From Schmidtea polychroa (Eukaryota), in contig CM097885.1 of NCBI GenBank assembly GCA_044892525.1, positions 8,620,001 through 8,684,000 of the forward strand: a stretch of 64,000 bases of DNA. Reading direction: 5' to 3'. The notes under the pieces were generated by a model. The model was not told the DNA's origin, made no database searches, and saw only the letters and a list, made by a program, of their open reading frames with translations. Positions 13,321 through 63,190 of this stretch are shown in pieces (positions within the stretch are counted from its first letter, which is position 1; every line of letters begins with the position of its first letter). A program made the translations under genes and the position numbers.

Positions 13321-13322
13321 CT

Positions 13323-13550
13323 ATGGATGTGATTAATAATAATGTGATTAATATGAGTAAGATTGTTCTGCCTAATGAAGAGCTACGTATTTTAAAATAT
13401 GGTCCTAACCATTGCATAAAAAATAGGATTGATGAAAATAAATTGCGTGCAAAAATCGAATGTGTTTATTATAATATATGTAAATCAAAGAAGGATGTTG
13501 ATCTACTTACGATAAAAAGTATGCTGAGTGCAATTACGATTGAGTATATT
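13323..13550 (+). mobile_element. Penelope-like element N-terminal fragment, opposite orientation
   Basis: VINMSKIVLPNEELRILKYGPNHC resembles the VINLS..L...E..VL.KG..F pre-RT motif of Penelope-like elements. Confidence 0.65.
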
Positions 13551-14379
13551 GTGTTGGGCTAGAACTGATTTTTTTTTCAAAAATACATCAAATAAACAAT
13601 ATTAACAAAGTGCAAAACAACAAAAATATAAACACTGAAATTAAATAAAATGATACAAATGCAAGAAGTATTTCAAGAAAACTGACTCAAACATAACAGA
13701 GAAACATAAAAAATTTACAATAACAGACTCGAAGGACATAGAAAGATAGAATAATACTAAATTCTAGATGAAATTCCAGAACAGTTCTTAAAAATGGCGA
13801 CATCCATCATAAAAGCCATGTAAATCAACAAAAGTTAGTAAAAATAAATAAATTAGTTTTGAAAATAAAAATTGGGAAAAAGAATTTAGGAAAAACAACA
13901 TCCAAATAAAAATTAACTTAAATTTAATATAGAATGTTCTGGAATTGCTCCAAATCCATCATGGAGGTAAATTTAACAAAAAATAATTAAAGAATAAAAA
14001 TTTAAAAATAAAAATAAAAATTATGGCACTAAAATTGCCATTAAAATCATCAAAAATAGAAAATAGAAAATTCTAGAATAAAAAGAATTCGGGTTTGTTT
14101 TAATGCATCAATACATACACGTGTACTTGCACACACAAAAATATATACCAACGCATTTCAGTCACAAAAACACTCTTTATGCCAAAAAAGTTTTTTTGTT
14201 ACTATCTTGAAAAATTAAATCGGAAAGCAGCAGTAAGAATGTTATTTTGTTTGTTATTATATATTTATATCATGCTTAATAATATAAATTTGGGAGATGA
14301 CTTTTAATTTTTTATTGAGTATGTAAGAGGGGTCAAAATTGATCTGAATATTCTTCGATTTTGATCCGTCTTACATCCA

Positions 14380-15550
14380 AGTCATTAAAGTACAACGTCA
14401 CTGAGCACGCAGCCTTGACGTATGCAGGTCACTGCCTGGCACGCACCTTTTTAATATACGTGACCGGGTCGTCGGAGGTCGTACCGACTCTGTGGTATAG
14501 GCCACTGGGTTCGTCGATGAATTAACTCTGGGTGAACGAGTTCTTAGAACTCGTTATCGATATTATATTACGGTAGTATATTACCGATGTACATACACAT
14601 TTGGGCTTGTCGAAGTGAGCACAGTGAGGTTACGAAAGCAAGCAACTTTCCTTAAATCGACTTTGTTTTCACGTATAAAATACATATAACCTGCACACTA
14701 AAAATCAACACGAATACAGTACACTAGGTATTAAAAACGGAGTAAAGCTCCAGACTCAAGTAATCACATTGTCTGATACAAATTGTAGTTGGTTAAATCT
14801 AATATTACTAAAGATGTCAATTTGTGCGTGGAACTTATAATGAAATATGCATTTCGGAGTGAGAATTGAAACTTAAAATGAGGTGCGATGAGTTGCCGAT
14901 GATGACCATGACAAGTTCAGGGTTCCGAAATAATGAACAAATGATCACAGAAAGGACTAAACGTCGAAAACGAAAATTATGTCAGAAGAAAACAACTATA
15001 GCTTGGAACGCTACGAAATGGATATGCGCAATGCGGGAATCCACAATACATTAACTAAAATCAATTTTGGAAGTTCGAAATAATTCAAATGAAACCTTTT
15101 CCTAAATTATAAATCGGATACGAATAAATTCTAAACTCGGTAATAATGTCATAGTTAACTTCTTAAATGAAGGTTTATTTATAATCTTCTCTAATAATCT
15201 TATATTTAACTGCCTAAATAACGAGTTATTTATAATTTTTCTAATAACTAAATAAAATAATTTCCCATATGTTTTATGCTTAACATTTCTTATGATTATA
15301 CCTAACCCTTTTATAGTTGATTTTGTTCCTCATCCCTCTTATAATTTTATATGGTTAGAATTACTCAGCCATTAAATCTAGGACCTATCATGGTTACTTC
15401 AAATTTTGTTAAATTATACTTATTGAAATATCCTGCAAATCCCAAAAAATTCACCCACAATCCTTATCAAATTTAATGATTTTATTATACCAAGATTTAT
15501 AAAGATTTATCATATTAATAGTACCTAAGTACCCATTACCCATGTGGATA
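14380..15550 (-). mobile_element. Possible highly decayed LTR (Gypsy-like) retroelement remnant
   Basis: Minus strand near 15430-15455 reads FLGFAGYF (Gypsy FLGLAGYY-like); GC-richer non-coding block at 14380-14760; no intact LTR pair seen. Confidence 0.3.
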
Positions 15551-15610
15551 AGCCATTTATTTGTGTATATTTATACTAATAATTAATACTAATATATATA
15601 TATATATATA

Positions 15611-15800
15611 AAGAAAATGGATTTGTGATTTTGGATCATGATGTTTATGTGAAAAAAGTAAATGAAGTACTCTCAGGTTCTCAATTTTTAAAAATTGATA
15701 CGTTTCGAAAAAAAAGGAGATTACTATGTTGTGTGATTTGGTTAAAAATACTCATATTGATGAAGAGGTAGCAAAATTAATTCACGCAAAAGGTTCTCTC
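15611..15800 (+). mobile_element. Penelope-like element fragment continuing the 13323 piece
   Basis: KENGFVILDHDVYVKKVNEVLSGSQFLKI matches the DKGN..VI.D...Y..K...LL pre-RT motif. Confidence 0.65.
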
Positions 15801-16184
15801 TTAACTGTGTTGGTAGTTGCGACTTGTTGCGTTTCTCGATTTAATTATACGTGTTTTATTTATTCTCAATGTATTGCGTACCTTACTTTATATTATTTGG
15901 TGTATGATCATATATTTAATTCAATTTGGTGCGGTTTTAATTCTATGTATTTCCGACTCATTAAAACAAGCTCTCAATTTTTGGTTCTAACCCAACAGCA
16001 GTTTTAACATAAAGCAAGAAAGTAATTAATCTATCAATACCAAAATTTGATCTGATCTAATCATTGTGGGTATGAGGAACAGTGTTGGTGCGGCATGTAG
16101 AAGATGAGACCTTCTTATCTCTTTCGCATGAGGTTTCCCAAATACATCTTTACGTGATTACTAAAAGATATTACATATTAGATA

Positions 16185-16630
16185 AGTAGATGGATGTGAC
16201 ACCGCCAGATCATGTCACCGCTAGATCACCTACCCCCCACCCCCCCCCCCCCCGACAGAAAAATTTTTTTAAAGATTTTTTTTTCAAGGTCAAATTTTTA
16301 ACAAAGACAATGACTCATCAAGGTCATTGAAACAAAGAATTTTTTTTTGTTTTAATTATCGATTATTATTAAGTGATCTAGCGGTGACATACCATTTGAC
16401 TTCCCAGAACTTTTTCAATTTTCAAAATTATTTAAATATTTATACATCATTTTGAAGGCCAGGCAAAGATCTATCTTTTGAGCCATAGAAATAATTTTTA
16501 TCATCAGTGGTACAAAAGTTATTAATTTTTTAGTCAGAGACTGATTTATGGTTAAAATTTTCAAAAATGTTCAAAGTTTACTAAGTAATTTGCGGGTGAT
16601 TTGTCAATCATCCAATCAGGTACGACTTTG
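16185..16630 (+). repeat. Left TIR of the Polinton (about 445 bp)
   Basis: Reverse complement of 27432-28086 minus the internal duplication; followed by (ATT)n at 16685-16832. Confidence 0.93.
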
Positions 16631-16714
16631 TTTATCATTATTATTGGGAAAGATATTAACGCCCGCGCGGAATATTTTCAAAAATATTATTATTATTTTC
16701 AAAGTCTTAATCAA

Positions 16715-16832
<118 letters not shown>

Positions 16833-16913
16833 GGGTAATGCTCGCAAGGGTACTGGTCACGCTCAACAAGTCACAAGGGTATTATTAAACAAATCAACAA
16901 AACATACATTTAT

Positions 16914-17413
16914 TTAAACAATAAAATAATGTAAAATTAACAAAGGTAAACTAAATATTGATGTACTACTATTCGCAGCAATATTGTTTGAAATTGGTAA
17001 CGTCGAATTGATTTTCAGATATTCTATTGATCCTTTGATTGTTTGAATTTCTCCTAATAATAATTCGATCATTTTAACAAATAATCATGCTTCTTATCAA
17101 TAATTTTCATATTCTTTTTATTTTCAACAATAGAGTTATTGAAAACTTCAATATGATCAATCAATTTAATTTTTATATTTTGTATATATGCAAATGATAG
17201 TTCATAACTGTTTTCTAAATTCTCCAATCTTTGAGATATTCTTTTTCCTGGATGCTTTGACCATTTTGGTTTGTCAAGAATATATAAAATATCCATCAAC
17301 TTGGCTGTATTCGGACAAACACATATTGATTTATTAAAAGACTCCACTGTTATTGTTGTATTGTGTGAGCACACACTCGTTATAATAATTAGCAATATGA
17401 ATATAGTTTTCAT
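16914..17413 (-). pseudogene. Polinton accessory gene: predicted secreted/surface coiled-coil protein with a hydrophobic C-tail; one frameshift
   Basis: Signal peptide MKTIFILLIIITSVCS; a 1-nt shift at about 17072 continues the frame as MIELLLGEIQ...SSTSIFSLPLLILHYFIV*. Confidence 0.65.
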
Positions 17414-17518
17414 GGTGTATCAAATCAAAACCTTTCTTTTACATTTATAGTCTATCAACCAATCAAAATCATACGGTATTAGTATAAATAAAACATCATA
17501 TTTTAAATTATTGTAGAA

Positions 17519-18034
17519 ATGTCTCATTTTATGGAAAATCTTTTAAGCGAACTTATCAATAAGAATATTATGGAAAGCCTCAGTTTCCTGGTCGATCGGA
17601 CCGAAAAGATTATAGAAGGAAATCATATTGATTATGAGGATGTGCTCAATTCCGAATGCCTCGAAACGAAAAAATTTTATTTTCATAGGATTTTTAACTG
17701 TCTATGCGACGAAGAGATGAAGTGGACCCGAATACTAGTAGGGTTCGCTTATATGAAGATCATAATCGAAAGAAGTTTATGGGACTCTGAACATTATTAT
17801 CAGTGGTCTCAAGAAGTAATACTTTTATTAATATTTATTTTATTAATATTTATTTTCTAGATAATCAAATCAAAGTTTCAGCCATGGATTGAAGCCAATG
17901 GCGGATGGGGCGTGCTGAATCAACTCGCCAGAAATGCGAAGGAAATAGATCAACAGAAAATCAAATTTAAAAACTATTTAAAACTTGCAACAGGTGTTGC
18001 TATTTTGTATGTTTTATGCAGGTTTTTTAAATAA
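17519..18034 (+). CDS. Bcl-2 family protein (156 aa, 2 exons) carried by the Polinton
   Basis: Intron 17816-17860 (GT..TTCTAG); BH1-like DEEMKWTRILVGFAY, BH2 FQPWIEANGGWG, C-terminal anchor LATGVAILYVLCRFFK. Confidence 0.85.
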
Positions 18035-18111
18035 AAATTAATATAGTTATTTTGTTTGATTTTTAAATAAAATTTTAAATAAATTTACAAACACTAATTA
18101 ACTAAAATTTA

Positions 18112-18536
18112 TTAATTAACACATTCACAGTCATCATCTCCACATTTCATTATATTTTCAACGACATGATCAATACAATCATTCGTAATATTATCTTTAG
18201 GTTCATCTTTAGGTTCCTCTATAGGTTCCTCTACAGGTTCATCTATAGGTTCATCTATAGGTTCATAGATTTCCTCATCAATTTCTTGAGTTTCTTCCTC
18301 ATCAATTTCTTGAGTTTCTTCCTCATCAATTTCTTGAGTTTCTTCCTCATCATCAAATCCTGTATCTTGACTCTCAACTATCCAGCCGATATTTAAGGCA
18401 TTTGTAATAGATAATATGTCCTCAATTTTCACACCAGCTATTTCTGCTAACTTTTCCAACAAAAAGTTGATTACAAATTCTAAATAATAAATAATTCGGT
18501 AATTAATTAATCATGTTAACCTTTTTCTGCAGTCAT
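18112..18536 (-). CDS. Acidic low-complexity Polinton protein, 2 exons
   Basis: Exon 1 MTAEK(E), intron 18480-18520, then an in-frame ORF with (DEEETQEI)x3, EP repeats and a Cys-rich tail. Confidence 0.7.
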
Positions 18537-18669
18537 TTTCATCACTTTAAAACTATATTATAAGTTTTTTTATAGATTTTCTTTGTTAAATTTGCATGTC
18601 ATTTGCATTTATGTTGCAATTAATAAAGAGAAAAAACAAATATGACTAATACATTTATTAAATATAACA

Positions 18670-19080
18670 TTAAAATATTTGTGAAAGTCTAGCAGACATT
18701 ATTTTCCAAATAGGAGAATATACATCATTATTATCAACTTTATATCCCTGGATTGCAATTGTTATATACCAATTTTCATTTTCTTTGAAACTGATTTCAT
18801 CAAAAGCATCATAAAATCTTGCATATCTATTGTTGAACCATGCATGTTGATTACACGACAGATTCGAATCTATCCGTTTAAAAACATCATCAATAGTTTT
18901 GACATCAATCATTGAAAGCGTGCCGGATAAGAATTGAAATTTAGTTGGAATTAGCTTGACTGGTGCAACCAATTTCATATTGATTTCTTCTTTCAAAAAA
19001 TACATTTTGTAGTTGTGGAACATTTGAACTGGTTGTACCATTTCTTTAGGTTTTTCGGTGCTTGAAATTTTCTTGGTCAT
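18670..19080 (-). CDS. Polinton hypothetical protein, possibly an OB-fold ssDNA-binding protein
   Basis: Intact 136-aa ATG ORF; beta-rich C-terminus WYITIAIQGY...SPIWKI is reminiscent of viral SSBs (weak). Confidence 0.55.
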   Translation of the reverse strand: MTKKISSTEKPKEMVQPVQMFHNYKMYFLKEEINMKLVAPVKLIPTKFQFLSGTLSMIDVKTIDDVFKRIDSNLSCNQHAWFNNRYARFYDAFDEISFKENENWYITIAIQGYKVDNNDVYSPIWKIMSARLSQIF

Positions 19081-19329
19081 CGTGAATAATGAATAAATTT
19101 AAATGTTACAGGGTTTTTATACCTTTGACTCATGCCTATCAACCAATCAGATTATAGCATGTCTTTGTTTAAATTGCATTCAAAATGCATTGATGTTGCA
19201 TTGTCACATGTTTTGTTATACGTTCTATTTACAGATTTATTATTTATGTGTTTTATTATTAATGTTTAAATTATTACATGTTTTGTTATATGTTCTATTT
19301 ACAGATTTATTATTAATGTGTTTCATTAT

Positions 19330-19515
19330 TATTAATTTTTTTTACTATTATTTCTATTATTATTATTACTATTCATATTTCTATTATTACTATTATTATT
19401 ACTATTCATATTTCTATTATTACTATTATTATTATTATTTCTATTTCTATTATTACTATTATTATTATTATTACTATTACTATTATTATTATTTATTACT
19501 ATTATTTATTACTAT
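19330..19515. repeat. Imperfect (TAT/TAC)n microsatellite inside the Polinton
   Basis: Direct reading; it produces the spurious poly-Tyr ORF. Confidence 0.9.
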
Positions 19516-19553
19516 TTCAAATATAAAAAAACACAACAGATACAAAAATACAT

Positions 19554-19971
19554 TTATTCATATCCAAGATCTACAATCCGGGAGTAGTGAAACCTTCTCA
19601 GAGTTTTCACTAACTCCCATTCGACATATCGCCAATATCGATCGGCACAGCATGAGCATCCGATGATGCATTGGTACTCCGGCTCCATTTGTTTCATAGT
19701 TCTGTTGATTTTGACATCCCATAAAAATTGGTGGAATACCTCCATGATTCTTATTTGGGTTGAATAAAAAATCAAATCAGGTATGATTTCCGGTTCCCGA
19801 TCCTTGATTACTTCAGCAATTTGCGGATAATAATATTTTATCCTATTGATCATTATTTCTAAATATTTTTCTAAAATAATAAATATAAAAAAATGTGAAA
19901 ATAAAAATTTTAAATTTACCATAATCGTCAATATCTTTCATGAGATTCGCGGCGCTCGGAATTTTGTACAT
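19554..19971 (-). CDS. Polinton hypothetical protein with CxxxCxCC motif, 2 exons
   Basis: Exon 1 MYKIPSAANLMKDIDDY(E), intron 19871-19919, joined in frame to KYLEIMINR...CIIGCSCCADRYW. Confidence 0.7.
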
Positions 19972-20043
19972 AGTGAAATAAATGAATCCTAAACAAAAAA
20001 CCGTTTGTTTAAATCAATCAATAACCAATTAGAAATTAACCAA

Positions 20044-20481
20044 TTAGAAATCGACCAATGAAATTATCTCATTTCGAACATTGTCAACAAATTCTCTATA
20101 CTCCAAATTTCTCAACCCCAACATGACAACCTTTCCACTAGCAAACACGTTGACACATATAGGGTTATATTTTAATAGTCTTAGTGCCGGAAACAATTCC
20201 GGTTCAAACATACAATCACATTTTTTCGACATGTTATATAGATTGATACTATGTCCCATATCCATAGTAACGGTAATTGATTGGATTATAATATTATTTA
20301 TTCGATATTGTAATTTATTAATATCCAAAGGTTACTTACATCCCATGATTCTGCATTTACCAGTCTTGAAAAATATTATCGGATATTTCCCACTTCTATC
20401 GATAATTTGCTGGGGTTTCCCTGGTGGGAACCTCATATTCGATACATCAAAATTTCCTCGATAATTTATATTTGCTAACAT
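20044..20481 (-). pseudogene. TATA-binding-protein-like gene with one in-frame stop
   Basis: Repeat 1 IIFFKTGKCRIMG; repeat 2 IQSITVT...FEPELFPAL...VNVFASGKVVMLG (TBP: YEPELFPGL..LIFVSGKVVLTG); TAA at 20332-20334. Confidence 0.85.
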
Positions 20482-20580
20482 TATTAAATCATTTATGAAA
20501 ATTATTCTTTATATACAAATTGAGCACGAGTTCATTAAATCATCGAATATAAACAAATACACATATATAAAATTTTTGAA

Positions 20581-21207
20581 ATGGAATTAAGAAATGATGC
20601 AGTATACCAAATCGTTGGTCCGAGTGGTAGCGGAAAAACATTATTTGTTTGTAAAATTACTAAAATCAAATTTATTCAAATCAAAATTCAACAGGATTTA
20701 TTGGCATAGGGTGCTGATGAAGAACATGGATTAACTCAATCAAGTTTCTGTAAATTAAAAAACATGAAAATTGTAAAGGGATTCGATAAAAACTGGTCCA
20801 GCCGATTAAAGAAAGGTGATGTCATTATTATCGATGATTTGTATCAAGAAGCTAATAAAGAAAAAGATTTTAATAATTTATTTACAAAGATCAGCAGACA
20901 TGTCGGTGTAACAGTTATTTTCATAACACAAAATCTATTTCATCAAGGTGGGGCACATCGAACACGTAATTTAAATATACAATATTTAGTTATTTTCAAG
21001 AATCCTAGAGATGCAACAGTGATTGATTTTCTTGCACGTCAAGCATACCCTAACAATCGTAATTTTCTTATCAGTGCATTTCAAGATGCTACAAAAATAC
21101 CTCATGGATATATATTTCTTGATTTCACACAACAATGTCCCGATGATTTACGAGTAAAAACAGATATTTTCAACCCAAAAGGTGCCATGGTTTATAAACA
21201 AAGTTGA
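20581..21207 (+). pseudogene. A32/FtsK-like genome-packaging ATPase
   Basis: Walker A GPSGSGKT (20617-20640), Walker B VIIIDD, SRH..ITQN..RT..LN..Y.VIFKNPRD; compensating +1/-1 frameshifts at about 20655 and 20710. Confidence 0.92.
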
Positions 21208-21225
21208 AAACCTCTATGAATAATA

Positions 21226-21752
21226 ATGTTTCTAAAAGCAAGGGTGAAAAATATTAGGAAATTAAGAAAAAGTATTAGAAAGAGTATTAAAGTTCCAAAA
21301 GTTCCACCAACAACTAGTTATACACCGTCTAAAAAACTTGTAACTGAAAATTTCTCTGCAATGAATCTTATTTCGAAAAATCCTAAACCTAAACGTAAAA
21401 CTCGTAAAACCCGTAAAACCGGTAAAAAAGTAGTTAAAAATCATCGCAGTTTTCCATTTTTTAATGCATTGTTAAAGGCCCCGAGTATGAAAAGAATGAA
21501 TATATTGCAATCATTCCCAAATTTTGTTGTCGATGATTTACTCAATATTATACTTAAGTAGTCAAAGGCAAAATTAAAATCAGTAAATCAAAAAAGCATT
21601 TATTGAGCAAACATAGGAAACCATTGTTATCTTTAGTAAATAATAAAAATCGTAAGCAAATGAGGAAAATTATATATAAACAACAAGGTGGATTTATTGG
21701 TGCATTGATACCTCTGGCATTATCATTATTAGGTGGAGTTACACAAACATAA
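21226..21752 (+). pseudogene. Lys/Arg-rich putative core protein with C-terminal QQGG|FIGALIPLALSLLGG hydrophobic peptide; one frameshift
   Basis: Basic ORF 21226-21561 continues after a 1-nt shift at about 21558 to TAA at 21752; the xGG motif resembles adenoviral protease cleavage sites. Confidence 0.7.
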
Positions 21753-21755
21753 ACA

Positions 21756-21983
21756 ATGGGTGCTAATCCTTCATTGCCCGACATTAAATTTAATTTTAAA
21801 TCTTCTTGTTGTAATGGAGAAGATTTGGACGAACCCAGAAGACGAAGCCGGTTTCGGTGGAGTGGCAAAATTAAAGAAAAGAGTTCCGAATTCGAAAAAA
21901 GAAACCCAGAAGTGGTTATCAGATCAGCTTGCGTACAGTTTGAACAAACCAATGCGGAAAAGATTTCCAACAAGAGCGTATAA
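21756..21983 (+). CDS. Small putative myristoylated protein overlapping the integrase start in another frame
   Basis: MGANPS fits MGxxxS; SSCC; basic RRRSRFR; starts 3 nt after the upstream stop. Confidence 0.5.
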   Translation: MGANPSLPDIKFNFKSSCCNGEDLDEPRRRSRFRWSGKIKEKSSEFEKRNPEVVIRSACVQFEQTNAEKISNKSV

Positions 21984-22201
21984 AACATTTGGTATTGACG
22001 ATTTATGGCAAATGGATTTGATGGAGATGATACCTTATTCGAAAATTAGCAATGGGAATAAATATATTTTAACATGTATTAATGTATAGAGCAGGTTTGC
22101 ACGAGCAATACCAGTCAAGGCAAAATCTGCAGAAGTAATGTCCAAGGCAATTAATATTTTATTTAAAGATGGACATCCTAATAACTTGCAAACAGATTTA
22201 G

Positions 22202-22257
<56 letters not shown>

Positions 22258-22887
22258 TTAGGTAAAGAATTCTACAATAGTAAAGTTAAGCAAATCCTCG
22301 ATAAACTGAAAATAAATCACTACTCGGTACATTCTCAATACAAAGCTGCCCATGTTGAAAGATTTAATCGAACATTGAGAGATAGATTAAAGAAATTGTT
22401 CGTGCATCAAGGTAATAAAAAATGGGTAAATGCTTTACCGAAAATAATAACAAGTTATAATCATTCATCACATCGAGGACTGAATGGATTGAGACCGGTT
22501 GATATTACATCAAAAACACCAGTATCTAAGAAATCTGTAAAAATTGCAAAACCTAAATATAAAGTCGGTGACCATGTTAGAATTAGTAAAATTAGTGCAT
22601 CACCATTTATTAAAAATTTTGATACAAATTGGAGTGATGAAGTCTTTGTAATTTCAAAAATAAATACTAAACAGAATCCTGTAATGTATGTAATCAAAGA
22701 CAATGATAATAATATTGTACAGGGGAAATTTTATGAGCAGGAATTACAAGTCATTCCTCCCCCAAAAGTATTTAGAATTCAAAAAATATTGAAAACTAAA
22801 AAGGTCGGTAAGGATAAACAATACTATATCAAATGGCATGGTTATCGAAACCCGTCATGGATATCAGCAAAAGACCTAGTAAAGTGA
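21814..22887 (+). pseudogene. Retroviral-like (c-) integrase with C-terminal chromodomain; one in-frame TAG, one intron
   Basis: AGFGG..KL N-terminus; D (WQMDL), D (LQTDLG|KEF), E (HVERFNRTL); YYIKWHGY..SWI chromodomain; TAG at 22087-22089; intron 22202-22261. Confidence 0.95.
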
Positions 22888-23901
22888 ATTTTTATACTAT
22901 TTTGCCGAGCAATAGTTGTCCATTAATTCATCCAGAAAATCAAGCAAGCAAATTCATCATCGAACTCCAAAACCCTATCTATTTGGATAATGACTGGGAA
23001 GTTGCTCTGTTGGATTTTACATTTGTATACAATTTATTCCCAATCTATAGCAAATCAGTTATTGAATATAATAAGAAAGTAGCAGTTACGGAATATATTA
23101 GTGTTCTTATCGATAAAGATAGTTATAACTTGACGAGTTCATCGAAATCAAGGAAACCTATAATTTATGATGATGGTCAATATTTATACATGAATTGCTT
23201 GAATAAGCCATTCGAAATTATATTTTCTACAGTGGCTGATGCTAAACGTCTTGGATTTTCTGATTTACGTAATGTATTTAATGATACAGTCAAAAAAAAA
23301 TCTCTCTACACTTCCAAAAACTAATAATTTAGTGGAATTCAAATTTAAGCTATCATACATTGAAATAACTGAGCATGCATATACTTTTAAAGATAATTTA
23401 TATATTACAGACCTCGAACAATTACAATCTTATTTAGGTGAGAATTGTAGCGATATTTTAACAGTTTTTGAGCTTCAAAAAGATAAAGTATTTAGATTTA
23501 GTATAAATTCTAATCTTAGTCAAGTTAAATTTGACTCAAATTTGACAAAAACATTAGGATTGACTAAACCAGTATGTACACAAAATGAACAAATTTGTGA
23601 AGGAACAAACAAACCGAAAATCCTTAAACATCATCAGCAAATGTTCATTTACAGTAATATCGTGGAACCAGTTATTGTTGGCGATTCTAGTGTTCCTTTA
23701 ATGATATCTATATGGATTGAAAAACATGATCAAGATGAAGTTGTACAAATCAATGTAGAAAATCCCATGTATTTACCTGTTTCAACATCTTGTATAAACA
23801 ATATAGAAATAAATATAAGAGATGATTCTGATCAATTAATCGAATTTCCAAAAGGTTCAAAAACTCATTTGACATTACATTTTCGTAAAATAAATGGCTA
23901 A
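22884..23901 (+). pseudogene. Minor capsid protein (penton-like); frameshift in an A-run
   Basis: FYTILPSNS..PEN..SKF..L..PI.L..DWEVAL N-terminus and MFIYSNIVEP...YLPV...IEINIRD...HLTLHFRK C-terminus; shift at about 23295; start is GTG overlapping the integrase stop. Confidence 0.88.
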
Positions 23902-24262
23902 TTCTGATATTATTAGTATGTATAGTGGTAGCCAATCTGGTGGTGAATTACCATATTTTATTGGTAAACAGTACGGATCAGGATGGTTGAGAACAATTGG
24001 AAGATTTGCCCTGCCTATTCTTAAACGTATTGGTAGTTTTGGTATGAAAACTGCAAAAGATGTTATTATGAATGAACAGAAAATATTACCATCTCTAAAA
24101 TCAAATGCTTTAGCTGAATTAGGGAAAGTTTTACCCGGGGTTGCAGGTATGTTTCAAAAAGAAAAACCTCCAGCTCCAGCTCATGCTCCAAAACGTAAAA
24201 GACATGGAATATCACGTATAAACAAACGAATGAAAGGCCATGGAACTATATTTGCAAAATGA
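23894..24262 (+). CDS. Polinton core / membrane-active precursor protein
   Basis: QSGG and QYGSG motifs, amphipathic WLRTIGRFALPILKRIG, basic tail; lies between the two capsid genes with overlapping start/stop codons. Confidence 0.75.
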   Translation: MANSDIISMYSGSQSGGELPYFIGKQYGSGWLRTIGRFALPILKRIGSFGMKTAKDVIMNEQKILPSLKSNALAELGKVLPGVAGMFQKEKPPAPAHAPKRKRHGISRINKRMKGHGTIFAK

Positions 24263-25479
24263 TTTGTGGTAAATCTGAATTATGTATATTTGATAGACCA
24301 TCGCTCCAGGCTGTAATAGAATTTGGGGCATTTGAGGAAGTTTTTCCTATGAATTCAATTACCGATAGTAGAAATGATATCGTGTTTTATATTAATGGTT
24401 CGCAAACCGAATATTTAGATTTGAACGATACTTTATTGACTGTTCAGATTAAGGTTGTAGATAAAGATAGAAAAGCTTTGGATGCCAATGCAGATGTAAT
24501 ACCGAACAATTTCCTGTTTCATACTCTTTTTAAAGATGCAATGTTGGGATTTAATAATATCAAGATTGAGGGCGGAAATAATACATTCATTCACAAGGCA
24601 TTAATAGAAACTATTTTAAATTACAATTCCGATACTAAAAATACATGTCTTACTCCTATGGGTTATGGCAGTGATGATGAAAGAAAAAAGTGGGTAAAAG
24701 GCTCAAAGGTTTTCACCATGTGCTCATCATTACAACTTGATTTTATGGATCAACCAAAATATTTACTACCGGGAGTTAATGTACATATTAGACTGAAAAG
24801 GTCTGATTCTGCATTATCTCTTACTAGTGCAACTACTACACCAATATGTCAATTAGTTGATGCAAAATTATTGGTGAGAAGAGTTCGAGTAGACCCCTCA
24901 GTATTAGCAGGTCATCAATTGGGTCTTAATTCAAAACATGCAATTTATCCATTAAAAACAAAGGAAATTGTACAATTTGCTATTGCTAAAGGTGCTTCAT
25001 CATTCTATAAAGAACAAATATTTGGTGACAGAAGAATGCCTAATTTTATTCTGGTAACATTTCAAAGTGAAGCACAATATAATGGATCATATACTGCGTC
25101 CACCTCAATTTTCAAAAACTTTGGTGTTACTTCATTGACTTTGTCGAAAAATACTGATTATAGAGAAACATATATTCAAGATTTCGAGAATGATAATTAC
25201 TGTGCGACATATATGCAGAGTATTGTTAGAAATCTGGGTTATTTAGATAAAAATTTGAATTGTGGAATAACTCTAGAAGATTTTAAAAGCAAATACCCAT
25301 TTTTTACATTAGTTTTAGCCCCTGATTTTGATTTAAATCAAAGTCAATTACCTCAAAATGGAAATTTACGACTGGATATAAAGTTTGCAAAAGCTATTAC
25401 TGAACCAGTACATGTTATAATATATGGAGTATTTGAAAATGAAGTTCAAATTACTGCAAATAGAACAGTGTTAGTATAA
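24259..25479 (+). CDS. Major capsid protein (double jelly-roll), intact 406 aa
   Basis: KSELCIF..P..Q..I N-terminus, YLDLNDTLL, QPKYLLPGV..IRL.R, GNLRLDIKFA and C-terminal ITANRTV typical of Polinton MCP. Confidence 0.92.
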   Translation: MICGKSELCIFDRPSLQAVIEFGAFEEVFPMNSITDSRNDIVFYINGSQTEYLDLNDTLLTVQIKVVDKDRKALDANADVIPNNFLFHTLFKDAMLGFNNIKIEGGNNTFIHKALIETILNYNSDTKNTCLTPMGYGSDDERKKWVKGSKVFTMCSSLQLDFMDQPKYLLPGVNVHIRLKRSDSALSLTSATTTPICQLVDAKLLVRRVRVDPSVLAGHQLGLNSKHAIYPLKTKEIVQFAIAKGASSFYKEQIFGDRRMPNFILVTFQSEAQYNGSYTASTSIFKNFGVTSLTLSKNTDYRETYIQDFENDNYCATYMQSIVRNLGYLDKNLNCGITLEDFKSKYPFFTLVLAPDFDLNQSQLPQNGNLRLDIKFAKAITEPVHVIIYGVFENEVQITANRTVLV

Positions 25480-25506
25480 ATGTATATTGAAACATAAAAA
25501 GTTGTC

Positions 25507-25891
25507 ATGGAGTAAGTTGTTTTTTATACTCTGGATTTATTTAAGTAGTTCTGTTCAGGTCAATAAAATCGGAAAACAGATATTGGGAAATGAATTTGTT
25601 TGAGTTTTTCCTCTTGATAAAATTCCATATTTGAGCAATAATCAAGCAATAATCGTCAATACTCAATCGTCTCATCTTGGTGGAGAACATTGGATAGCTA
25701 TATATGTGAAACCTGGTAATATATTCGTGTTCGATCCTATGGGTTTTTATTACCCGGCTTTGTTGATATCAAAACTGCAAACAATGGGGAAACCTATTGT
25801 GTATAATAAAATTATGTTTCAAAATCCTTTGACCAAAACATGTGGTCAACATTGTTTAGCTTGGTTATTGTACAAAAAATCTGATGTTTAA
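25507..25891 (+). pseudogene. Adenain-like (Ulp1-fold) cysteine maturation protease
   Basis: H (GEHW), D (FDPMG), Q (FQN), C (TCGQHC); inferred intron 25512-25548 gives an MDSVQVNKI start; TGA at 25601-25603 replaces G of FV(G)VFPLD. Confidence 0.88.
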
Positions 25892-26154
25892 TAAATTTGA
25901 TGTTTAATAAATGTATCCTTTCCTTTGTTGTTGTGATTAATATTATTATTTTAATATTATTATTATTTTTAATTAATATTATTATTATTTCGAAAAATAT
26001 TATTATTTTTAATTAATTTTATTATTATTCATATAAATATTATTAATTCGAGATAAAGACTACCTATGCCTGAAGCATGCACAGTGCAAGTTAACAAAGG
26101 CATGACTAACAAAGACAGTCACATGTAATTTCAGAGTGATTTACATGTATGCGT

Positions 26155-26250
26155 GTGATTGGTTGAGAGAGTAAAATATTCAGTGTATATGCGTGTGTGT
26201 CTATATTCTGATTGGCTGGGACAGGAAAATATTCATTCTCTTTATAAACA
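26155..26250 (+). promoter_or_regulatory. Putative Pol II promoter (two inverted CCAAT boxes + TATA) for the terminal acidic gene
   Basis: GATTGGTT at about 26157, GATTGGCT at about 26210, TTTATAAA at 26241, ATG at 26325; similar CCAAT+TATA pairs precede the Bcl-2 and RING genes. Confidence 0.5.
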
Positions 26251-26324
26251 TTGACAAATCTAAAATTTGTCACAATTATTTTAAAATTTTCAAAAATTTT
26301 CAACAATTTTCAACAATTTTCAAA

Positions 26325-26994
26325 ATGGACAAAAATAATATTTTAAGAAGCATGATGGCTTGCGATAATGGTATATTATTTATTTTTATTTATTTTTTAT
26401 ATATTTATTTGTAGATGATTTATGGTACCAGGTGACCGAAAACGAGAATGGATTTAATTTGAATTGCACCTATGGTAATTTTATTTTTTTTTTATTTATT
26501 AATATTATTATTATTTAGATGTTATAATGTTGAGTGACGAAGAAGACGAAATAATAATTATTAGCGATGAAGAGGAATCACCAATTATTAATCATCACGA
26601 CTTATCAAGTAAATTATTATTATTTTTATTATTTAATTTAAAAAAACTGTTTTAGGAAATAGTCAAAGAGAAAATTCCCCCAATTTTGTTGGAGAAACAG
26701 AAAATTTAATAGGTGCAATCATTGAAGATACACGTAAATTTTTATTATTATTATATGTAATTTTTAAAAATTGATTTAGGAAGTTCAATTATTTTGGAGG
26801 ACATATATGATCCTATTATGGATGATCTATATGCTCCCATTAATGTGGATGTCAAGGAAATTGCTCCAGAGACAAAATTATTTAATACCCCTATTCGGGA
26901 TGCTTCTATTCATGAGGTTTTTGATGCCCCCACTTTAACCGGGGATGTCCTCTCTGAGAATGATACAGATTCAGATTCTGAATCTAAATGTTAG
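26325..26994 (+). CDS. 5-exon acidic Polinton protein (162 aa) with tandem SIM-like motifs
   Basis: Exons 26325-26370, 26415-26474, 26519-26608, 26656-26733 and 26780-26994 join without stops via four phase-1 GT-AG introns; DVIMLSDEEDEIIIISDEEES. Confidence 0.78.
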
Positions 26995-27094
26995 TATTTT
27001 TTATTTTATTTATTTTATAAATATTTATTTTAATAATTTCTTAAATTAAAAATAACATTCTGTAGAATATTTAAATTATTTTAAACATAAATTT

Positions 27095-27187
27095 TATATG
27101 AAACATGATGAAAATTATATGAAACATGATGAAAATTATATGAAACATGATGAAAATTATATGAAACATGATGAAGTTTATATGAAA
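27095..27187. repeat. 20-bp tandem repeat (TATATGAAACATGATGAAAA)x4
   Basis: Direct reading. Confidence 0.9.
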
Positions 27188-27236
27188 TTAATGATTCTAA
27201 CTAATCTAGAGAATGTTATTTTTATTTAAGTTTAGA

Positions 27237-27323
<87 letters not shown>

Positions 27324-27342
27324 TTTAATAATAATAATAATA

Positions 27343-27431
<89 letters not shown>

Positions 27432-28086
27432 CAAAGTCGTACCTGATTGGATGATTGACAAATCACCCGCAAATTACTTAGTAAATTTTGAACATTTTTG
27501 AAAATTTTAACCATAAATCAGTCTCTGACTAAAAAATTAATAACTTTTGTACCACTGATGATAAAAATTATTTCTATGGCTTAAAAGATAGATTTTCGTC
27601 TGGCCTTCAAATTGATGTATAATTATTTAAATAATTTTGAAAATTGAAAAGGTTCTGGGAAGTCAAAAGGTATGTCACCGCTAGATCACTTAATAATATT
27701 TTTGAAAAATAATAATAATTTTAACCAAATTAGTGTCTGACTAAAAAATTAATAACTTTTGTACCACTGATGATAAAAATTATTTCTATGGCTCAAAAGA
27801 TAGATTTTCGCCCGGCCTTCAAAATGATGTATAAATATTTAAATAATTTTGAAAATTGAAAAAGTTCTGGGAAGTCAAAAGGTATGTCACCGCTAGATCA
27901 CTTAATAATAATAATCGATAATTAAAACAAAAAAAAAATCTTTGTTTCAATGACCTCGATGAGTCATTGTCTTTGTTAAAAATTTGACCTTGAAAAAAAA
28001 ATTTCTTAAAAATTTTTTCCCCCCCCGGGGGGGGGGGGTAGGTGATCTAGCGGTGACATGATCTGGCGGTGACACATCCATCTACT
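27432..28086 (-). repeat. Right TIR of the Polinton with an internal about 215-bp tandem duplication
   Basis: About 27505-27697 is repeated at about 27719-27908; preceded by (AAT)n at 27237-27430. Confidence 0.93.
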
Positions 28087-28399
28087 TAAATAAGATATAA
28101 AATAACTTTTTGTAAGTTTTCTAAAATAAAATCATTCTGAATATATCCGTAATATTTGTCTAAACTTCTTATTTATTAAACTGTATCATTTTACATTAAT
28201 TCTGAAACTGAATTTTAAATTTTAACTTTGTTTCCGTCACTAATCAGAATTTTTGTTTACTTATTCTGAGAAATCCAATTCATTTTGATAAATACCACTA
28301 AATCACGAAACTCAACTTTTATTTCCACAATTTGTTAGTTGAAACCTTTTGTCAAGAGTTTTCAAATGTGTATTTTATTTTGCTCATATGCAATATTTT

Positions 28400-29179
28400 T
28401 ATAAAATAGTTTTATCAATTGCGATTATATTTAGCTTATTAAACATTCCATTATTTGTAATAATATTTTTTTAATATTTATTTGGCTTTGAAAATTCTAT
28501 TACAATATTGTAGCTAATAAAATAAAAATTTTAATTATTATAGCATTGTGATCGTGATTTGGCTGCAATACTGACTGGAAACTTCTATCTGTATTGTTGA
28601 TAAGAGTTTTGTTGTTGAGCTTCATCATTTTCGTTTTCTTCTTAAAAGTGCGCATGTTTCTAGTTTCTGATTATTTAAACAATCCTTTTTTTCTCTTAGT
28701 AAATTTTTAATATAAATATTTAACATAAATATATAAATTTTTAATATAATATATAAAACTTCTATAAAATGGGCGCACTACATACAATCCATGCATTTCA
28801 ATGCATCATTTCCCTAGTGCAAAATGAAGTCCCACGATGTCTTTTTCTGTCTTATTATAACATTTTAGAATTTTCACCTCTGATTACTTTTCAATTGACA
28901 TTGTATTTATTAAAAAATTGACTATGAATTAGTAATATTTCGATATTCACGAATTTTCGGCACTGCCTTTTCAAGTGATTTTTGTTCTTGGTTAGAGAAA
29001 TCTTTACTTTCTATTTAATCATTTGAATATTAAAGTAAATTTACTAACAAACTATAAATACATAATGCAATATTTAAAAAGACACAACTTTTATTTTTAT
29101 AAACTTCATCCAATTTATAAAATCAATTAATTAAATTGTATATTCACAACGAAAGTCCGAACATAAATCAAAACACTCA
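28400..29179. repeat. Inverted copy of the 11335-12135 repeat
   Basis: See partner; similarity stops where the AGTAG terminus at 29182 begins. Confidence 0.85.
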
Positions 29180-29181
29180 TA

Positions 29182-29838
29182 AGTAGGTAGTTAGTGCATT
29201 ACGGCAGCAATGACCCCCGGGAGGGGGGGGTTCTGCTGCTGTAGACATTTTCTGCTTTTTTGATTACATAATTGCTGCCGTAATGCCCAATGTTATTTTT
29301 TCTGGGATTTTCAATACAAAAATTTTTTTCAATACAAAAAGCCAAGGTTTATTCGGACTATAGTGAGGGGGTCACCTTGGTCCTGAGGATTTCAATAGAA
29401 AGGGTGATCTACACTAAAAAAGCGTGGTAAAATTTTGAATTGCAGTAAATTAATGGCTCAGATTTTTAAATTACAGTAAATTATGGTCTAAAAATTTTAA
29501 AATAAAGTAAATTAAGGTCTATATTTTTGAATTACAGTAAATTATGGTCAAAAAATTTGAATTTCAGCAAATTATGGACTCAGATTTTTGAAATAAAGTA
29601 AATTATGGGTCTAAAAATTGAATTATGGTCTAAAATTTTAAATTAAAGTTAATTAAAGTTCAAATTTTGAATTAAAGTAAATTATGGTCCAAAAAAATTT
29701 AATTAAAGTAAATTAAGATCTAAATTTTTAAATTAAAGTAAATTAAGGTTCAAATTAGTAAATTATGGTCTAAAAATGGAATTAAAGTAATCAATGGGCT
29801 CAAATAAGTTAATTCAGGTTCTAAAAAATTAAATTAAA
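29182..29838 (+). mobile_element. Terminus of a second Polinton-like family with about 30-bp subterminal repeats
   Basis: AGTAGGTAG start, C/G tract, repeats of GAATTA(C/A)AGTAAATTATGGTC; homologous to 55255-55550, which flanks the pPolB. Confidence 0.7.
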
Positions 29839-30285
29839 TTAAGAGTTTGGTGTTCCAGAGAGTCTAAAAATCCTGGCCCAGCTTTTCCCAGATTGGTTAG
29901 TGATTTTTGAAGCACCTGCCTTATTCAAGATATTATAAATTGATTCTAGGTCATAATAAAATAGATTTATCCGGCTGAGCTCTTCTATTTTATCCATCAG
30001 AGCTAGGGCTCTCTTGTCCATAACGGTTGATCTGTCAGTTTCTCCTCTCATACATCTACCAATGTAAGAAGCATTGCTGGAGGTGGGATTCGTTAGATTG
30101 CTGAGATCATTCCAGTTCTGAACGAGCTCCTTGCTGCTGAGGCCCTTTCTTAAGAAGAAAATTTTAATATTATTAATAGCAAATATTAAATTCTCTGGCC
30201 ATGATCCATTTGTATACAATAAAGCATCCGAGTTCTGCCCGGTGCTACCGAATGTTATATAGTTAGTTGCTAAAAGTTTTTGCAC
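29839..30285 (-). CDS. Hypothetical protein or fragment abutting the Polinton-like subterminal repeats
   Basis: 148-codon open frame with higher GC than flanks; no ATG at the 5' end; no motif recognised. Confidence 0.4.
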   Translation of the reverse strand: MQKLLATNYITFGSTGQNSDALLYTNGSWPENLIFAINNIKIFFLRKGLSSKELVQNWNDLSNLTNPTSSNASYIGRCMRGETDRSTVMDKRALALMDKIEELSRINLFYYDLESIYNILNKAGASKITNQSGKSWARIFRLSGTPNS

Positions 30286-30877
30286 ATTTTAAATTAAAAT
30301 TTATTTAATGGTGAGTCACCAATAAATGGTGAACACATCAAGCACCATTATACAAACTGTATGTCAGGGGTTTCTGGTGTAGTCACACTTACTCCTGGTA
30401 GTCAGGCGAAAAAATTCCGATTGAGGCCGGTTGGTAATACTCGAAACTTTGTTTCCTAAATAAATCTCTTGAATCGGAACAGAAGGAATATATATATATA
30501 TATAAACAACATCACATGAGCACACAAACAAGTAGACAAATGAGAAGAGCTCAATGAAGATGACAATAAAAGCCCAGAAAATTAACAATTTCGTGGAAGA
30601 TGGATGCCTTCAGAAATGATAATCGAAATGAACAAAATGGAGAAAGTACTAAAAGTTGTTAGATTGCTTAAATTAATTTATAAATGAATGTATATATGAC
30701 TCTAATTACCAGTATTGTTCTCCCTTATTGAGAATATGCTTGTAGTCCCTAGAATCTCGTTTCAATTTGACTTATTCTCGAAAGCGTGTACAGGCGTCAC
30801 AAATATACTTTAAAAGTTAATATATGCAAATAATATTAGATAAAATGATGATTTTTTAGTAGCGGCATTTATTAAAT

Positions 30878-31034
30878 TTTAAACAATTAAATGATAATTT
30901 AAGCCTGTTTCTGCGAATAATATATTTTATACAAATGAAAACATTTTCGACTATAAGATAGTTGAAAATGTTTTCATTTGTATTACATATATTATTCGCA
31001 GCAAAAGGCTTAAGTTATCATTTAATTGTTTAAA
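30878..31034. repeat. About 157-bp near-perfect palindrome (foldback MITE-like)
   Basis: AAACAATTAAATGATAA..ATACAAATGAAAACATTTTCGACTAT / ATAGTTGAAAATGTTTTCATTTGTAT..TTATCATTTAATTGTTT. Confidence 0.85.
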
Positions 31035-31044
31035 CATTAAATAA

Positions 31045-39558: not shown

Positions 39559-54538
<14,980 letters not shown>

Positions 54539-62060: not shown

Positions 62061-62157
<97 letters not shown>

Positions 62158-63099: not shown

Positions 63100-63190
<91 letters not shown>

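What the first reader, a model, noticed from the sequence alone, without database searches (positions are those of the whole stretch)
22195..22266. Microsatellite intron beside the second catalytic Asp of the integrase
Seen: TTAG|GT(ATT)n..TTTTAG|GTAAA. The 60-nt insert is almost pure (ATT)n, starts GT, ends AG and is flanked by the direct repeat TTTAGGTA. Splicing gives the canonical TDLGKEF. Retention is in frame and adds about 18 Ile next to the active site. Inference: an intron born by duplication of an AGGT proto-splice site plus microsatellite expansion, and possibly a splicing switch on integrase activity.
Basis: partly seen in the sequence, partly recalled or inferred. Interest (0 to 1): 0.8.

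Follow-up and report, generated by a model that had tools for sequence, protein, structure and literature searches.

The report
Microsatellite intron in Polinton integrase
A virus-like jumping element (Polinton/Maverick type) with more than 1,500 copies in this AT-rich animal genome carries a pure ATT repeat two codons after an active-site residue of its integrase gene; the repeat is most likely an ordinary inherited intron that the host is predicted to splice out, but no spliced RNA has been seen.

Summary
Window 22202-22261 is GT(ATT)18TTAG, 60 nt, flanked by TTTAGGTA, two codons after the second catalytic Asp of a Polinton/Maverick integrase. It is not private: 30 of 30 copies fetched carry it (33-144 nt) and 1,551 genome sites carry the exon/ATT junction. 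All 22 nearest protein relatives read QTD-xGKEF without a gap. Integrase codons on both sides are under purifying selection (pN/pS 0.21-0.27; 0.66-1.3 in shifted frames). Sister families in the same genome have 40-43-nt non-repeat inserts at exactly this phase-1 site. These inserts carry a stop or shift the frame, yet both gene halves stay open, so an intron at this site is real there. One such family (40 nt) groups with the ATT families (100/99). The same element also has a predicted 37-nt intron in its protease gene (30 of 30 copies).

Verdict: most likely a spliceosomal intron, older than this family, whose body became a microsatellite. Its birth as a microsatellite is not favoured, and the "splicing switch" has no evidence. 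No RNA proof was obtainable. The window copy is itself dead and part of a segmental duplication. This scan already reported the same feature on other DNA of this genome (e1-9281158).

The parts
22202..22261 (+). Predicted phase-1 spliceosomal intron, GT(ATT)18TTAG, 60 nt, splitting the Gly codon (G|GT) of TDLG|KEF
   Evidence: Searches give the sequence and the repeat. The same insert is in 30 of 30 copies. Relatives lack it. Sister families have stop-bearing or frame-shifting inserts at the same site. Splicing itself is inferred, not observed.
22204..22257 (+). Perfect (ATT)18 microsatellite forming the intron body
   Evidence: Length varies from 33 to 144 nt of insert among 30 copies. Split matches indicate inserts up to about 207 nt.
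22197..22204 (+). Left copy of the direct repeat TTTAGGTA (exon-1 end + intron start)
22257..22264 (+). Right copy of the direct repeat TTTAGGTA (intron end + exon-2 start)
21814..22201 (+). Integrase exon 1 (ATG 21814-21816; first DDE Asp inferred at 22015-22017; second Asp 22195-22197). In this copy it is broken by a private stop codon at 22087-22089.
   Evidence: The stop is private: other copies are open there, and nearly all laid contigs differ at 22089.
22262..22887 (+). Integrase exon 2 (DDE Glu inferred at 22357-22359; C-terminal chromodomain; stop 22885-22887)
   Evidence: (Chromo PF00385 E 0.0013, below cut-off)
20581..21207 (+). A32-like packaging ATPase of the same element, with a private in-frame stop at 20707-20709
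   Evidence: (PF04665 25.3 bits, cut-off 22.8)
24199..25479 (+). 426-aa open frame between integrase and protease, probable capsid gene (by position only)
   Evidence: There is no Pfam hit, so the function is inferred from gene order.
25507..25891 (+). Adenain-like (C5) protease gene: ATGGA, then a predicted 37-nt intron at 25512-25548 (GTAAGT..AAGTAG), then the body. This copy has a private stop at 25601-25603.
   Evidence: (PF00770 27.2 bits, cut-off 21.3). The intron is in 30 of 30 copies, and 26 of 30 have at least 113 open codons after it.
16158..16832 (.). Left terminal inverted repeat arm (approximate), ending in an internal ATT-type array of about 16700-16832
27240..28115 (.). Right terminal inverted repeat arm (approximate), with an internal ATT-type array of about 27237-27435

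Best explanation
The 60-nt GT(ATT)18TTAG stretch at 22202-22261 is most likely a phase-1 spliceosomal intron of a Polinton/Maverick integrase gene, predicted to be removed by the host spliceosome so that the active-site motif TDLGKEF is restored. Shown directly: the insert is a fixed trait of a family with at least 1,551 copies, and its length varies by repeat slippage from 33 to 144 nt or more. Relatives outside these families have no insert there. The integrase codons on both sides have evolved under purifying selection while the insert was present. Inferred: the intron existed before the microsatellite. The ancestor shared with a sister family carried an ordinary AT-rich insert of about 40 nt at this site. 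In the lineage leading to the ATT families the body was taken over by an expanding ATT array. This left only GTA at the 5' end, a U-rich tail with TTTAG at the 3' end, and aUUAU-like branch candidates every 3 nt. Because (ATT)n of 3n length has no stop in any frame, an unspliced message would encode an integrase with 9 to 46 or more Ile next to the catalytic Asp. I take this to be a by-product, not a device. The window's own copy is a dead member: it has three private stop codons and lies in a segmental duplication.
For: (1) The insert is family-wide. 30 of 30 fetched copies have it at the same site, starting GT and ending AG. They were extracted by their flanks, not by GT/AG. The exon-1/ATT junction pattern has 1,551 hits against 0 for the control.
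(2) The insert is derived. 22 of 22 nearest protein relatives (51-76% identical) have no residue in the insert columns. The uninterrupted degenerate motif occurs 109 times in this genome. The 30 of these that I fetched are other families, 68-79% identical in DNA.
(3) The gene was functional while carrying the insert. pN/pS is 0.215 among the 14 of 30 copies with open frames. It is 0.27 among all alignable rows (24 and 23 of 27), against 1.27 and 0.66 in the two shifted frames. Even the broken copies give 0.35.
(4) Sister families have obligatory inserts at the same site and phase. The gapped motif has 784 hits against 0 for the control. Family A has a 42-nt insert with an in-frame stop in 10 of 10 copies, and both halves are open in 5 of 10. 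Family B has a 43-nt insert that shifts the frame in 3 of 3, with both halves open in 2 of 3. The halves align to relative P0001 at residues 1-129 and 131-341, so the missing Gly is split by the junction. Family A has pN/pS 0.28 and about 280 copies.
(5) Family C (40 nt, frame-shifting, non-repeat) groups with the ATT and imperfect-ATT (D) families against all others, with support 100/99.
(6) The same element family has a second predicted tiny intron (37 nt, GTAAGT..AAGTAG) straight after ATGGA of the protease gene, in 30 of 30 copies. Without it that frame has no ATG before the catalytic region.
(7) Host introns in the window's CHD-like gene, read by eye, are 49-54 nt long with loose donor sites (GTTGGT, GTAAAT, GTAGAT). 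Host myosin exon matches lie 45-51 nt apart.
(8) The insert lies directly after the strand that carries the catalytic Asp. An AlphaFold2 model of the read-through form gives pLDDT below 50 for residues 129-142, the insert and its edges (the model is weak overall, mean pLDDT 66.9).
Against: No spliced RNA was seen and none could have been seen. No listed run is on record as RNA, and read laying masks the repeat, so junctions there are not reported. The donor GTATTA matches the metazoan consensus GTAAGT at only 3 of 6 places, and a pure ATT array has no perfect yUnAy branch site (both by eye). Read-through is open in every ATT and D copy, so this family offers no frame-based proof, unlike families A, B and C. 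All 30 insert lengths are multiples of 3. That is what a translated insert needs, but it is also what trinucleotide slippage gives, and the expected number of 1-2-nt indels in this sample is only about 0.25. Both family C copies examined are decayed, so function with their 40-nt insert is not shown. Intron bodies of A, B, C and D are no more alike than shuffled sequences (the lowest is 147 of 2000 shuffles), so homology of the introns rests on position alone. A single origin of all intron-bearing families is not favoured (p-AU 0.074, 0.046).
Confidence: 0.75

Rival explanations
1. The insert is translated. It would be an in-frame coding microsatellite giving a variable poly-Ile loop that the integrase tolerates, and it is not spliced.
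For: Read-through is open in 30 of 30 ATT copies and 15 of 15 D copies. All lengths are multiples of 3. The donor site is weak. No spliced RNA was seen (under the limits stated). The purifying selection fits any functional form of the gene.
Against: The insert is 9 to 46 or more consecutive Ile two residues after the catalytic Asp, at a place where 22 of 22 relatives have no insertion at all. Its length varies about fivefold among copies whose flanking codons are under strong constraint. Related families have inserts at exactly this site that cannot be translated through. GT and AG ends are kept in all copies.
Confidence: 0.12
2. The intron would be new in this lineage, born when the AGGT-containing site TTTAGGTA was duplicated (for example by repair of a staggered break) and the filler grew into an ATT array.
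For: An 8-nt direct repeat flanks the insert, and family A has an 11-nt one (GATTTAGGTAA). Daphnia neointrons show exactly such 4-12-nt repeats of the exon end at the far end of the intron (PMC4202315, passages read). In some searches, run without family C, the ATT/D clade sat beside an intron-less family (86/79 and 87/90). A single clade of all intron-bearing families is borderline rejected (p-AU 0.046), so the site may have gained an intron more than once.
Against: Family C, with a non-repeat 40-nt insert at the same site, groups with ATT and D at 100/99, so an intron probably predates the array. The repeat TTTAG|GTA is also what the coding sequence (Asp-Leu-Gly-Lys) and AT-rich splice signals give without any duplication. 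The tree is unrooted.
Confidence: 0.15
3. The insert is an inactivating lesion or an artefact. The integrase of this family would be dead and the copies spread by another family's integrase, by segmental duplication or by mis-assembly.
For: The window copy is dead (three private stops) and it was copied by a segmental duplication (99.885% over 20 kb including flanks). The element has no pPolB of its own among the frames scanned.
Against: There are 1,551 junction sites on all large contigs. 14 of 30 copies have both halves open. pN/pS is 0.21-0.27 in the true frame only. The insert is present in independent public runs laid on the locus, whose contigs run into the repeat from both sides.
Confidence: 0.03

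Closest known systems
Core genes of animal Mavericks/Polintons (vertebrates: PMC8097293, passages read; nematodes: bioRxiv 10.1101/2022.07.12.499685, passages read)
   Same: The gene set is the same: an rve integrase with a chromodomain, an A32-like ATPase, an adenain-like protease and terminal inverted repeats.
   Different: Those papers describe the core genes as intronless. Here the integrase, and by prediction the protease, are split by tiny introns. This 12-kb element also has no pPolB among the frames scanned.
Obligatory 40-43-nt inserts at the same codon in sister Polinton families of this genome (families A, B and C)
   Same: The position, phase 1 and GTA...TTTAG ends are identical, and the length class matches the imperfect-ATT family D (42-45 nt).
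   Different: Their bodies are unique AT-rich sequence that contains a stop or shifts the frame. Here the body is a pure, length-variable ATT array that stays open when read through.
Recently gained introns of Daphnia with flanking direct repeats (PMC4202315, passages read)
   Same: A short direct repeat of the exon end recurs at the far end of the intron, the ends are GT..AG, and the bodies are AT-rich.
   Different: In Daphnia the introns are polymorphic single-locus gains in host genes. Here the intron is fixed in a mobile-element family of more than 1,500 copies and is probably inherited, and the repeat can be explained by coding and splice constraints.
Introner-bearing Polinton-like proviruses of dinoflagellates (PMC11957031, passages read)
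   Same: Both are introns inside Polinton-like integrated elements.
   Different: Those are transposon-derived introners inserted at many places. Here there is one fixed site, and a microsatellite body rather than a mobile intron element.
Retroviral integrase catalytic cores with solved structures (4pa1_A, 5t3a_A and 21 others)
   Same: The DDE core is shared, and 'QTDLGKEF' aligns with 'QTDNGPNF'.
   Different: Sequence relatedness is distant (E 1e-8 to 1e-4), and none of these has an insertion after the Asp-x-Gly.

Membership tests
Spliceosomal (U2-type GT-AG) intron | GT at the 5' end and AG at the 3' end | tested here: met
   30 of 30 copies extracted by their flanks start GT and end AG.
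Spliceosomal (U2-type GT-AG) intron | Removal restores the conserved protein and the frame | tested here: met
   The removed form reads TDLGKEF, the form in 22 of 22 relatives. Because the length is 3n, the frame is kept either way.
Spliceosomal (U2-type GT-AG) intron | Spliced RNA lacking the insert exists | tested here: inconclusive
   No run is on record as RNA. Read laying masks the repeat. No same-species protein is in the protein collection (best 79% identity).
Spliceosomal (U2-type GT-AG) intron | Homologous position in relatives where the insert cannot be read through | tested here: met
   Families A (stop), B and C (frame shift) are at the same G|GT. In A and B both halves are open and abut residue 130 of P0001.
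Spliceosomal (U2-type GT-AG) intron | Donor, branch point and pyrimidine tract like those of the host | tested here: inconclusive
   The donor is GTATTA. Three host introns read by eye have GTTGGT, GTAAAT and GTAGAT and lengths of 49-54 nt. My automatic intron finder was too noisy to use. Only near-matches to a branch site were seen, by eye.
Polinton/Maverick element | Retroviral-type (rve) integrase, often with a chromodomain | tested here: met
   In the broken window copy rve scores 22.6 bits and Chromo 19.1 bits, both below the curated cut-offs. All 120 listed relatives carry PF00665. The PDB profile search hits integrase cores.
Polinton/Maverick element | Packaging ATPase and adenain-like protease | tested here: met
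   PF04665 scores 25.3 bits (cut-off 22.8) and PF00770 scores 27.2 bits (cut-off 21.3).
Polinton/Maverick element | Protein-primed family B DNA polymerase inside the element | tested here: not met
   No PF03175 hit was found among the element's frames scanned. A pPolB frame lies elsewhere in the window, at 55723-57864 on the minus strand.
Polinton/Maverick element | Terminal inverted repeats and 5-6-bp target duplication | tested here: inconclusive
   Inverted arms of about 16158-16832 and 27240-28115 are about 90% alike. The exact ends and the target duplication were not resolved.
Microsatellite | Perfect tandem unit of 1-6 nt, with length varying among copies in whole units | tested here: met
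   Insert lengths of 33-144 nt are all multiples of 3, and 12 of 30 arrays carry point interruptions.
Introner (transposon-derived intron) | The same intron sequence inserted in many unrelated genes with target duplications | not tested
   The body is a generic ATT array, so a search for copies in other genes would not be informative.

The most novel reading that the evidence does not exclude
The ATT array is a heritable rheostat. Its length would set how well the intron is spliced. Unspliced messages would not be destroyed, because read-through stays in frame. They would instead yield an integrase with a poly-Ile plug beside the catalytic Asp that poisons the integrase multimer. Each copy's repeat length would thus tune how much active integrase the family makes. 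If so, this would also be a natural series showing that a spliceosome can remove pure (AUU)n from about 30 to over 200 nt.
Probability: 0.07. Interest if true: 0.8.

Novelty: new variant of a known kind. Interest (0 to 1): 0.5.

Why it matters
Core genes of animal Mavericks/Polintons are described as intron-free (PMC8097293 and bioRxiv 10.1101/2022.07.12.499685, passages read). They are usually annotated with intron-blind gene finders. Here the most abundant integrase families of a genome are split at the active site, so such finders would call them broken, or would call a poly-Ile protein.

If splicing is confirmed, three points follow:
- These virus-like elements depend on the host spliceosome.
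- An intron can lose all internal sequence to a microsatellite and still be kept.
- The family offers more than 1,500 natural length variants of one intron for studying minimal requirements of splicing.

Papers I found in searches did not describe a microsatellite-bodied intron in a Polinton gene. This scan itself had already noted it once, in e1-9281158.

Tried and rejected
RNA evidence:
- The look-up of sequencing runs listed no holder on record as RNA.
- Two read-laying runs were used: on the window, and on a copy with only (ATT)9, chosen to escape masking. Both masked the repeat (22193-22267; L061 4851-4898) and listed no joint across it. One dropped joint in X9 is uninterpretable. Four 'RNA?' runs gave no bridging contig. 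This is no evidence either way.
- X4 shows poly(A)-type loose ends, so it may be RNA.

Same-species spliced proteins: none of 120 collection proteins is more than 79% identical to any locus.

Host splice-site statistics: an ORF-stitching intron finder run on 11 myosin loci gave only 10 unique junctions, several of them doubtful, so I abandoned it. A paralogue-guided approach also failed. I fell back on three introns read by eye.

First selection run: using all 27 rows it gave pN/pS 0.535 (controls 1.07 and 0.77), because several rows held rearranged, unalignable segments. Those rows were filtered out.

Intron-body homology: alignment scores of A, B, C and D against shuffles were all non-significant.

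Copy with a 29-nt insert (not 3n): it proved to be a decayed copy, so it is uninformative.

An ATPase intron at the window's in-frame stop (20707-20709): rejected, because both parts are in one frame, so the stop is a private one.

When it ran, the model was of low overall confidence.

Exact element ends and the target duplication were not resolved.

Full report
WHAT IS THERE. Window 22202-22261 reads GT, then (ATT)18, then TTAG, 60 nt in all. Tandem Repeats Finder reports 22203-22257 with period 3, 18.3 copies and 100% matches. The 8-nt repeat TTTAGGTA flanks the stretch at 22197-22204 and 22257-22264. It lies in a + strand frame running from ATG 21814 to the stop at 22885-22887, which matches rve and Chromo domains weakly. 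The neighbouring genes are an A32-like packaging ATPase, an adenain-like protease and a long frame with no Pfam match. Inverted repeat arms lie at about 16158-16832 and 27240-28115. This is therefore a Polinton/Maverick-type element of about 12 kb. No pPolB was found among its frames. A profile of the integrase and 22 relatives hits solved retroviral integrase cores, and 'lqtdlGkef' aligns with 'LQTDNGPNF'. The insert thus sits between the Gly and the Lys, two residues after the second DDE Asp (GAT 22195-22197). Read through, the frame stays open and adds I18 plus Leu-Gly.

NOT PRIVATE, NOT AN ARTEFACT. The genome (781 Mb) holds many copies. All 30 of 30 loci fetched with the flanking DNA have the insert at the same site, and all start GT and end AG. 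This set includes the window's own place and a twin of it. Insert lengths run from 33 to 144 nt, always multiples of 3, and 12 arrays carry point interruptions. Split matches imply inserts up to about 207 nt. The exon-1/ATT junction occurs 1,551 times, against 0 for the control.

THE INSERT IS DERIVED. The 22 nearest proteins in the public collection are 51-76% identical and about 340 aa long. All read QTD-xGKEFY with nothing in the insert columns. Within this genome the uninterrupted degenerate motif occurs 109 times. The 30 loci fetched from these are only 68-79% identical to the window's integrase, so they belong to other families. None of the 100 listed rows is an insert-free member of the window's family.

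THE GENE WAS IN USE WHILE IT CARRIED THE INSERT. In 14 of 30 copies both halves are fully open. Pairwise pN/pS among these 14 is 0.215. With every alignable row (24 and 23 of 27, duplicates dropped) it is 0.27, against 1.27 and 0.66 when the frame is shifted by one or two bases. Copies with broken frames give 0.35. A first run that included rearranged rows gave 0.535. The differences among copies therefore arose largely in lineages where the integrase mattered, and all those lineages had the insert.

THE SITE IS AN INTRON SITE IN SISTER FAMILIES. To test this I searched the same motif with GT, a gap of 16-46 nt and AG between its halves, and found 784 hits against 0 for the control. The 30 loci fetched fall into four groups:
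- Family A has a 42-nt unique AT-rich insert with an in-frame stop (10 of 10 copies).
- Family B has a 43-nt insert that shifts the frame (3 of 3).
- Family D has a 42-45-nt imperfect ATT array that is open when read through (15 of 15).
- Two loci carry short pure ATT arrays.
A hand tally of the 100 listed rows gives about 38 A, 8 B, 2 C, 42 D-like and 10 ATT-like. In 5 of 10 A copies and 2 of 3 B copies both halves are open. The halves align to relative P0001 at residues 1-129 and 131-341, so residue 130, a Gly, is split by the junction just as in the window. Family A has pN/pS 0.28 (controls 1.40 and 1.37) and family D has 0.24 (controls 1.16 and 1.13). Family A has about 280 copies. These families can make a whole integrase only by removing the insert, so a 42-43-nt AT-only intron at this very codon is very probably spliced in this host.

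RELATIONSHIPS. The trees were built from both exons with the insert columns dropped. ATT and D form one clade (100/100), and A and B form another (100/100). Family C has a 40-nt non-repeat insert that shifts the frame, but the two copies fetched are both decayed. When C is added, C, ATT and D stand together against all other rows with support 100/99. A single clade of all insert-bearing families is not favoured: p-AU is 0.074 without C and 0.046 with C. The trees are unrooted. My reading is that the ATT families inherited an intron already present in the ancestor they share with C, and that the array is secondary. Whether the A/B intron is the same gain, with losses elsewhere, or a second gain at the same proto-splice site stays open. 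Insert bodies are no more alike than shuffled sequences, so homology rests on position.

SUPPORT FROM THE SAME ELEMENT AND THE HOST. The protease gene of this element starts ATGGA, followed by GTAAGT...AAGTAG (37 nt, 25512-25548) and then the conserved body. This layout is found in 30 of 30 copies, and 26 of 30 have at least 113 open codons after it. Without splicing that frame has no ATG ahead of the catalytic region. Three introns of the CHD-like host gene in the window, read by eye against conserved motifs, are 49, 49 and 54 nt long. Their donors are GTTGGT, GTAAAT and GTAGAT. Exon matches of host myosin genes lie 45-51 nt apart. Tiny introns with loosely defined donor sites thus seem normal here, which makes the weak GTATTA donor less of an obstacle.

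WHAT REMAINS UNSHOWN. I have no RNA evidence. No run is on record as RNA, and the read-laying tool masks the repeat. In the ATT and D families read-through is open, so the translated poly-Ile reading cannot be excluded by frame logic. I rate it at about 0.12, for three reasons. It would place 9 to 46 or more Ile right after the catalytic Asp, where no relative has an insertion. The length varies freely among constrained copies. Sister families cannot translate their inserts at all. An AlphaFold2 model of the read-through form places the insert directly after the strand at residues 124-126, with pLDDT below 50 for residues 129-142. The model is weak overall (mean pLDDT 66.9).

The intron call is supported. 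The idea that it was born by AGGT duplication plus microsatellite growth is not favoured for this lineage, because family C groups with it. The flanking repeat is what the coding site TTTAG|GTAAA and AT-rich splice signals would give anyway. Family A's 11-nt repeat, and the Daphnia precedent of exon-end repeats at new introns (PMC4202315, passages), keep a duplication at the intron's first birth possible. The 'splicing switch' has no support. (ATT)n has no stop in any frame, so in-frame retention needs no selection.

THE WINDOW COPY ITSELF. It has private stop codons in the integrase (22087-22089), the ATPase (20707-20709) and the protease (25601-25603), where other copies are open. A twin lies 330,971 bases downstream and is 99.885% identical over at least 20 kb, including the flanks. 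This copy is therefore a dead member that was last copied by segmental duplication, not by integration.

COMPARISON WITH WHAT IS KNOWN, AND NOVELTY. Vertebrate and nematode Mavericks are described with intronless core genes (PMC8097293; bioRxiv 10.1101/2022.07.12.499685; passages only). Introns in Polinton-like proviruses are in print for dinoflagellates, as inserted introners (PMC11957031, passages). Literature searches turned up no microsatellite-bodied intron in a Polinton gene. Earlier notes of this scan on the same genome reached the same reading for another copy (e1-9281158). They also reported short introns in other Polinton genes (e1-9047361, e1-7908106). Those notes call the host a flatworm, which I did not test. 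I class the finding as a new variant of a known kind. It is of moderate interest, is limited by the missing RNA proof, and is already recorded once in this scan.

Noticed in passing
window 25507-25548 (and L104-L133): The protease gene begins ATGGA and is then interrupted by a predicted 37-nt intron (GTAAGT..AAGTAG). The protease frame has no ATG ahead of its catalytic region unless this is spliced. The layout is conserved in 30 of 30 copies.
   Followed up: yes
window 12007-31994 versus G000:C1:8962972-8982971: The whole element with its flanks has a twin 330,971 bases downstream at 99.885% identity over 20 kb, sharing the private stop codons. This is a recent segmental duplication or an assembly duplication. 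Its full extent was not mapped.
   Followed up: partly
window 22087-22089, 20707-20709, 25601-25603: This copy has three private in-frame stop codons, in the integrase, the ATPase and the protease. Other copies are open at these places.
   Followed up: yes
window 20044-20508 (-): Inside the element lies a frame with a TATA-binding-protein domain (PF00352, E 1.5e-14), broken by one stop in this copy. This is unusual cargo for a Polinton-type element.
   Followed up: no
window 16700-16832, 19317-19526, 27237-27435: Three more long ATT/AAT-type arrays lie inside the same element, two of them within the inverted repeat arms. ATT arrays are therefore a general trait of this family, not only of the integrase insert.
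   Followed up: no
window 55723-57864 (-): A 713-aa frame with a protein-primed DNA polymerase B domain (PF03175, E 8e-30) and a weak endonuclease VII match lies about 28 kb from the element. The element itself has no polymerase.
   Followed up: no
window 22818-23901 (+): The two overlapping frames after the integrase (22818-23324 and 23203-23901) are one continuous frame in another copy (L009). The window copy, or that copy, therefore has a frame shift in this unnamed gene.
   Followed up: partly
window 61358-63978 (+): Three tandem 182-aa frames about 1,035 nt apart each end in a C3HC4 RING finger (PF13920, E 1.3e-9 for the first).
   Followed up: no
window 39563-45409 (+): A host CHD-like chromatin remodeller gene (SNF2 domain at 41606-42064) has tiny introns of 49-54 nt. 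It also has a GC-richer proline-rich tandem repeat at about 40519-40950 that is open in all three frames.
   Followed up: partly
window 22518 and 22786: Contigs of run X4 end in runs of A that the genome does not encode at these places. This is possibly polyadenylation inside the integrase frame, or internal priming.
   Followed up: no
window 6174-7934 (-): A 586-aa open frame matches the ZER1-like C-terminal domain (PF22964, E 1.4e-25). It is probably a host gene exon.
   Followed up: no
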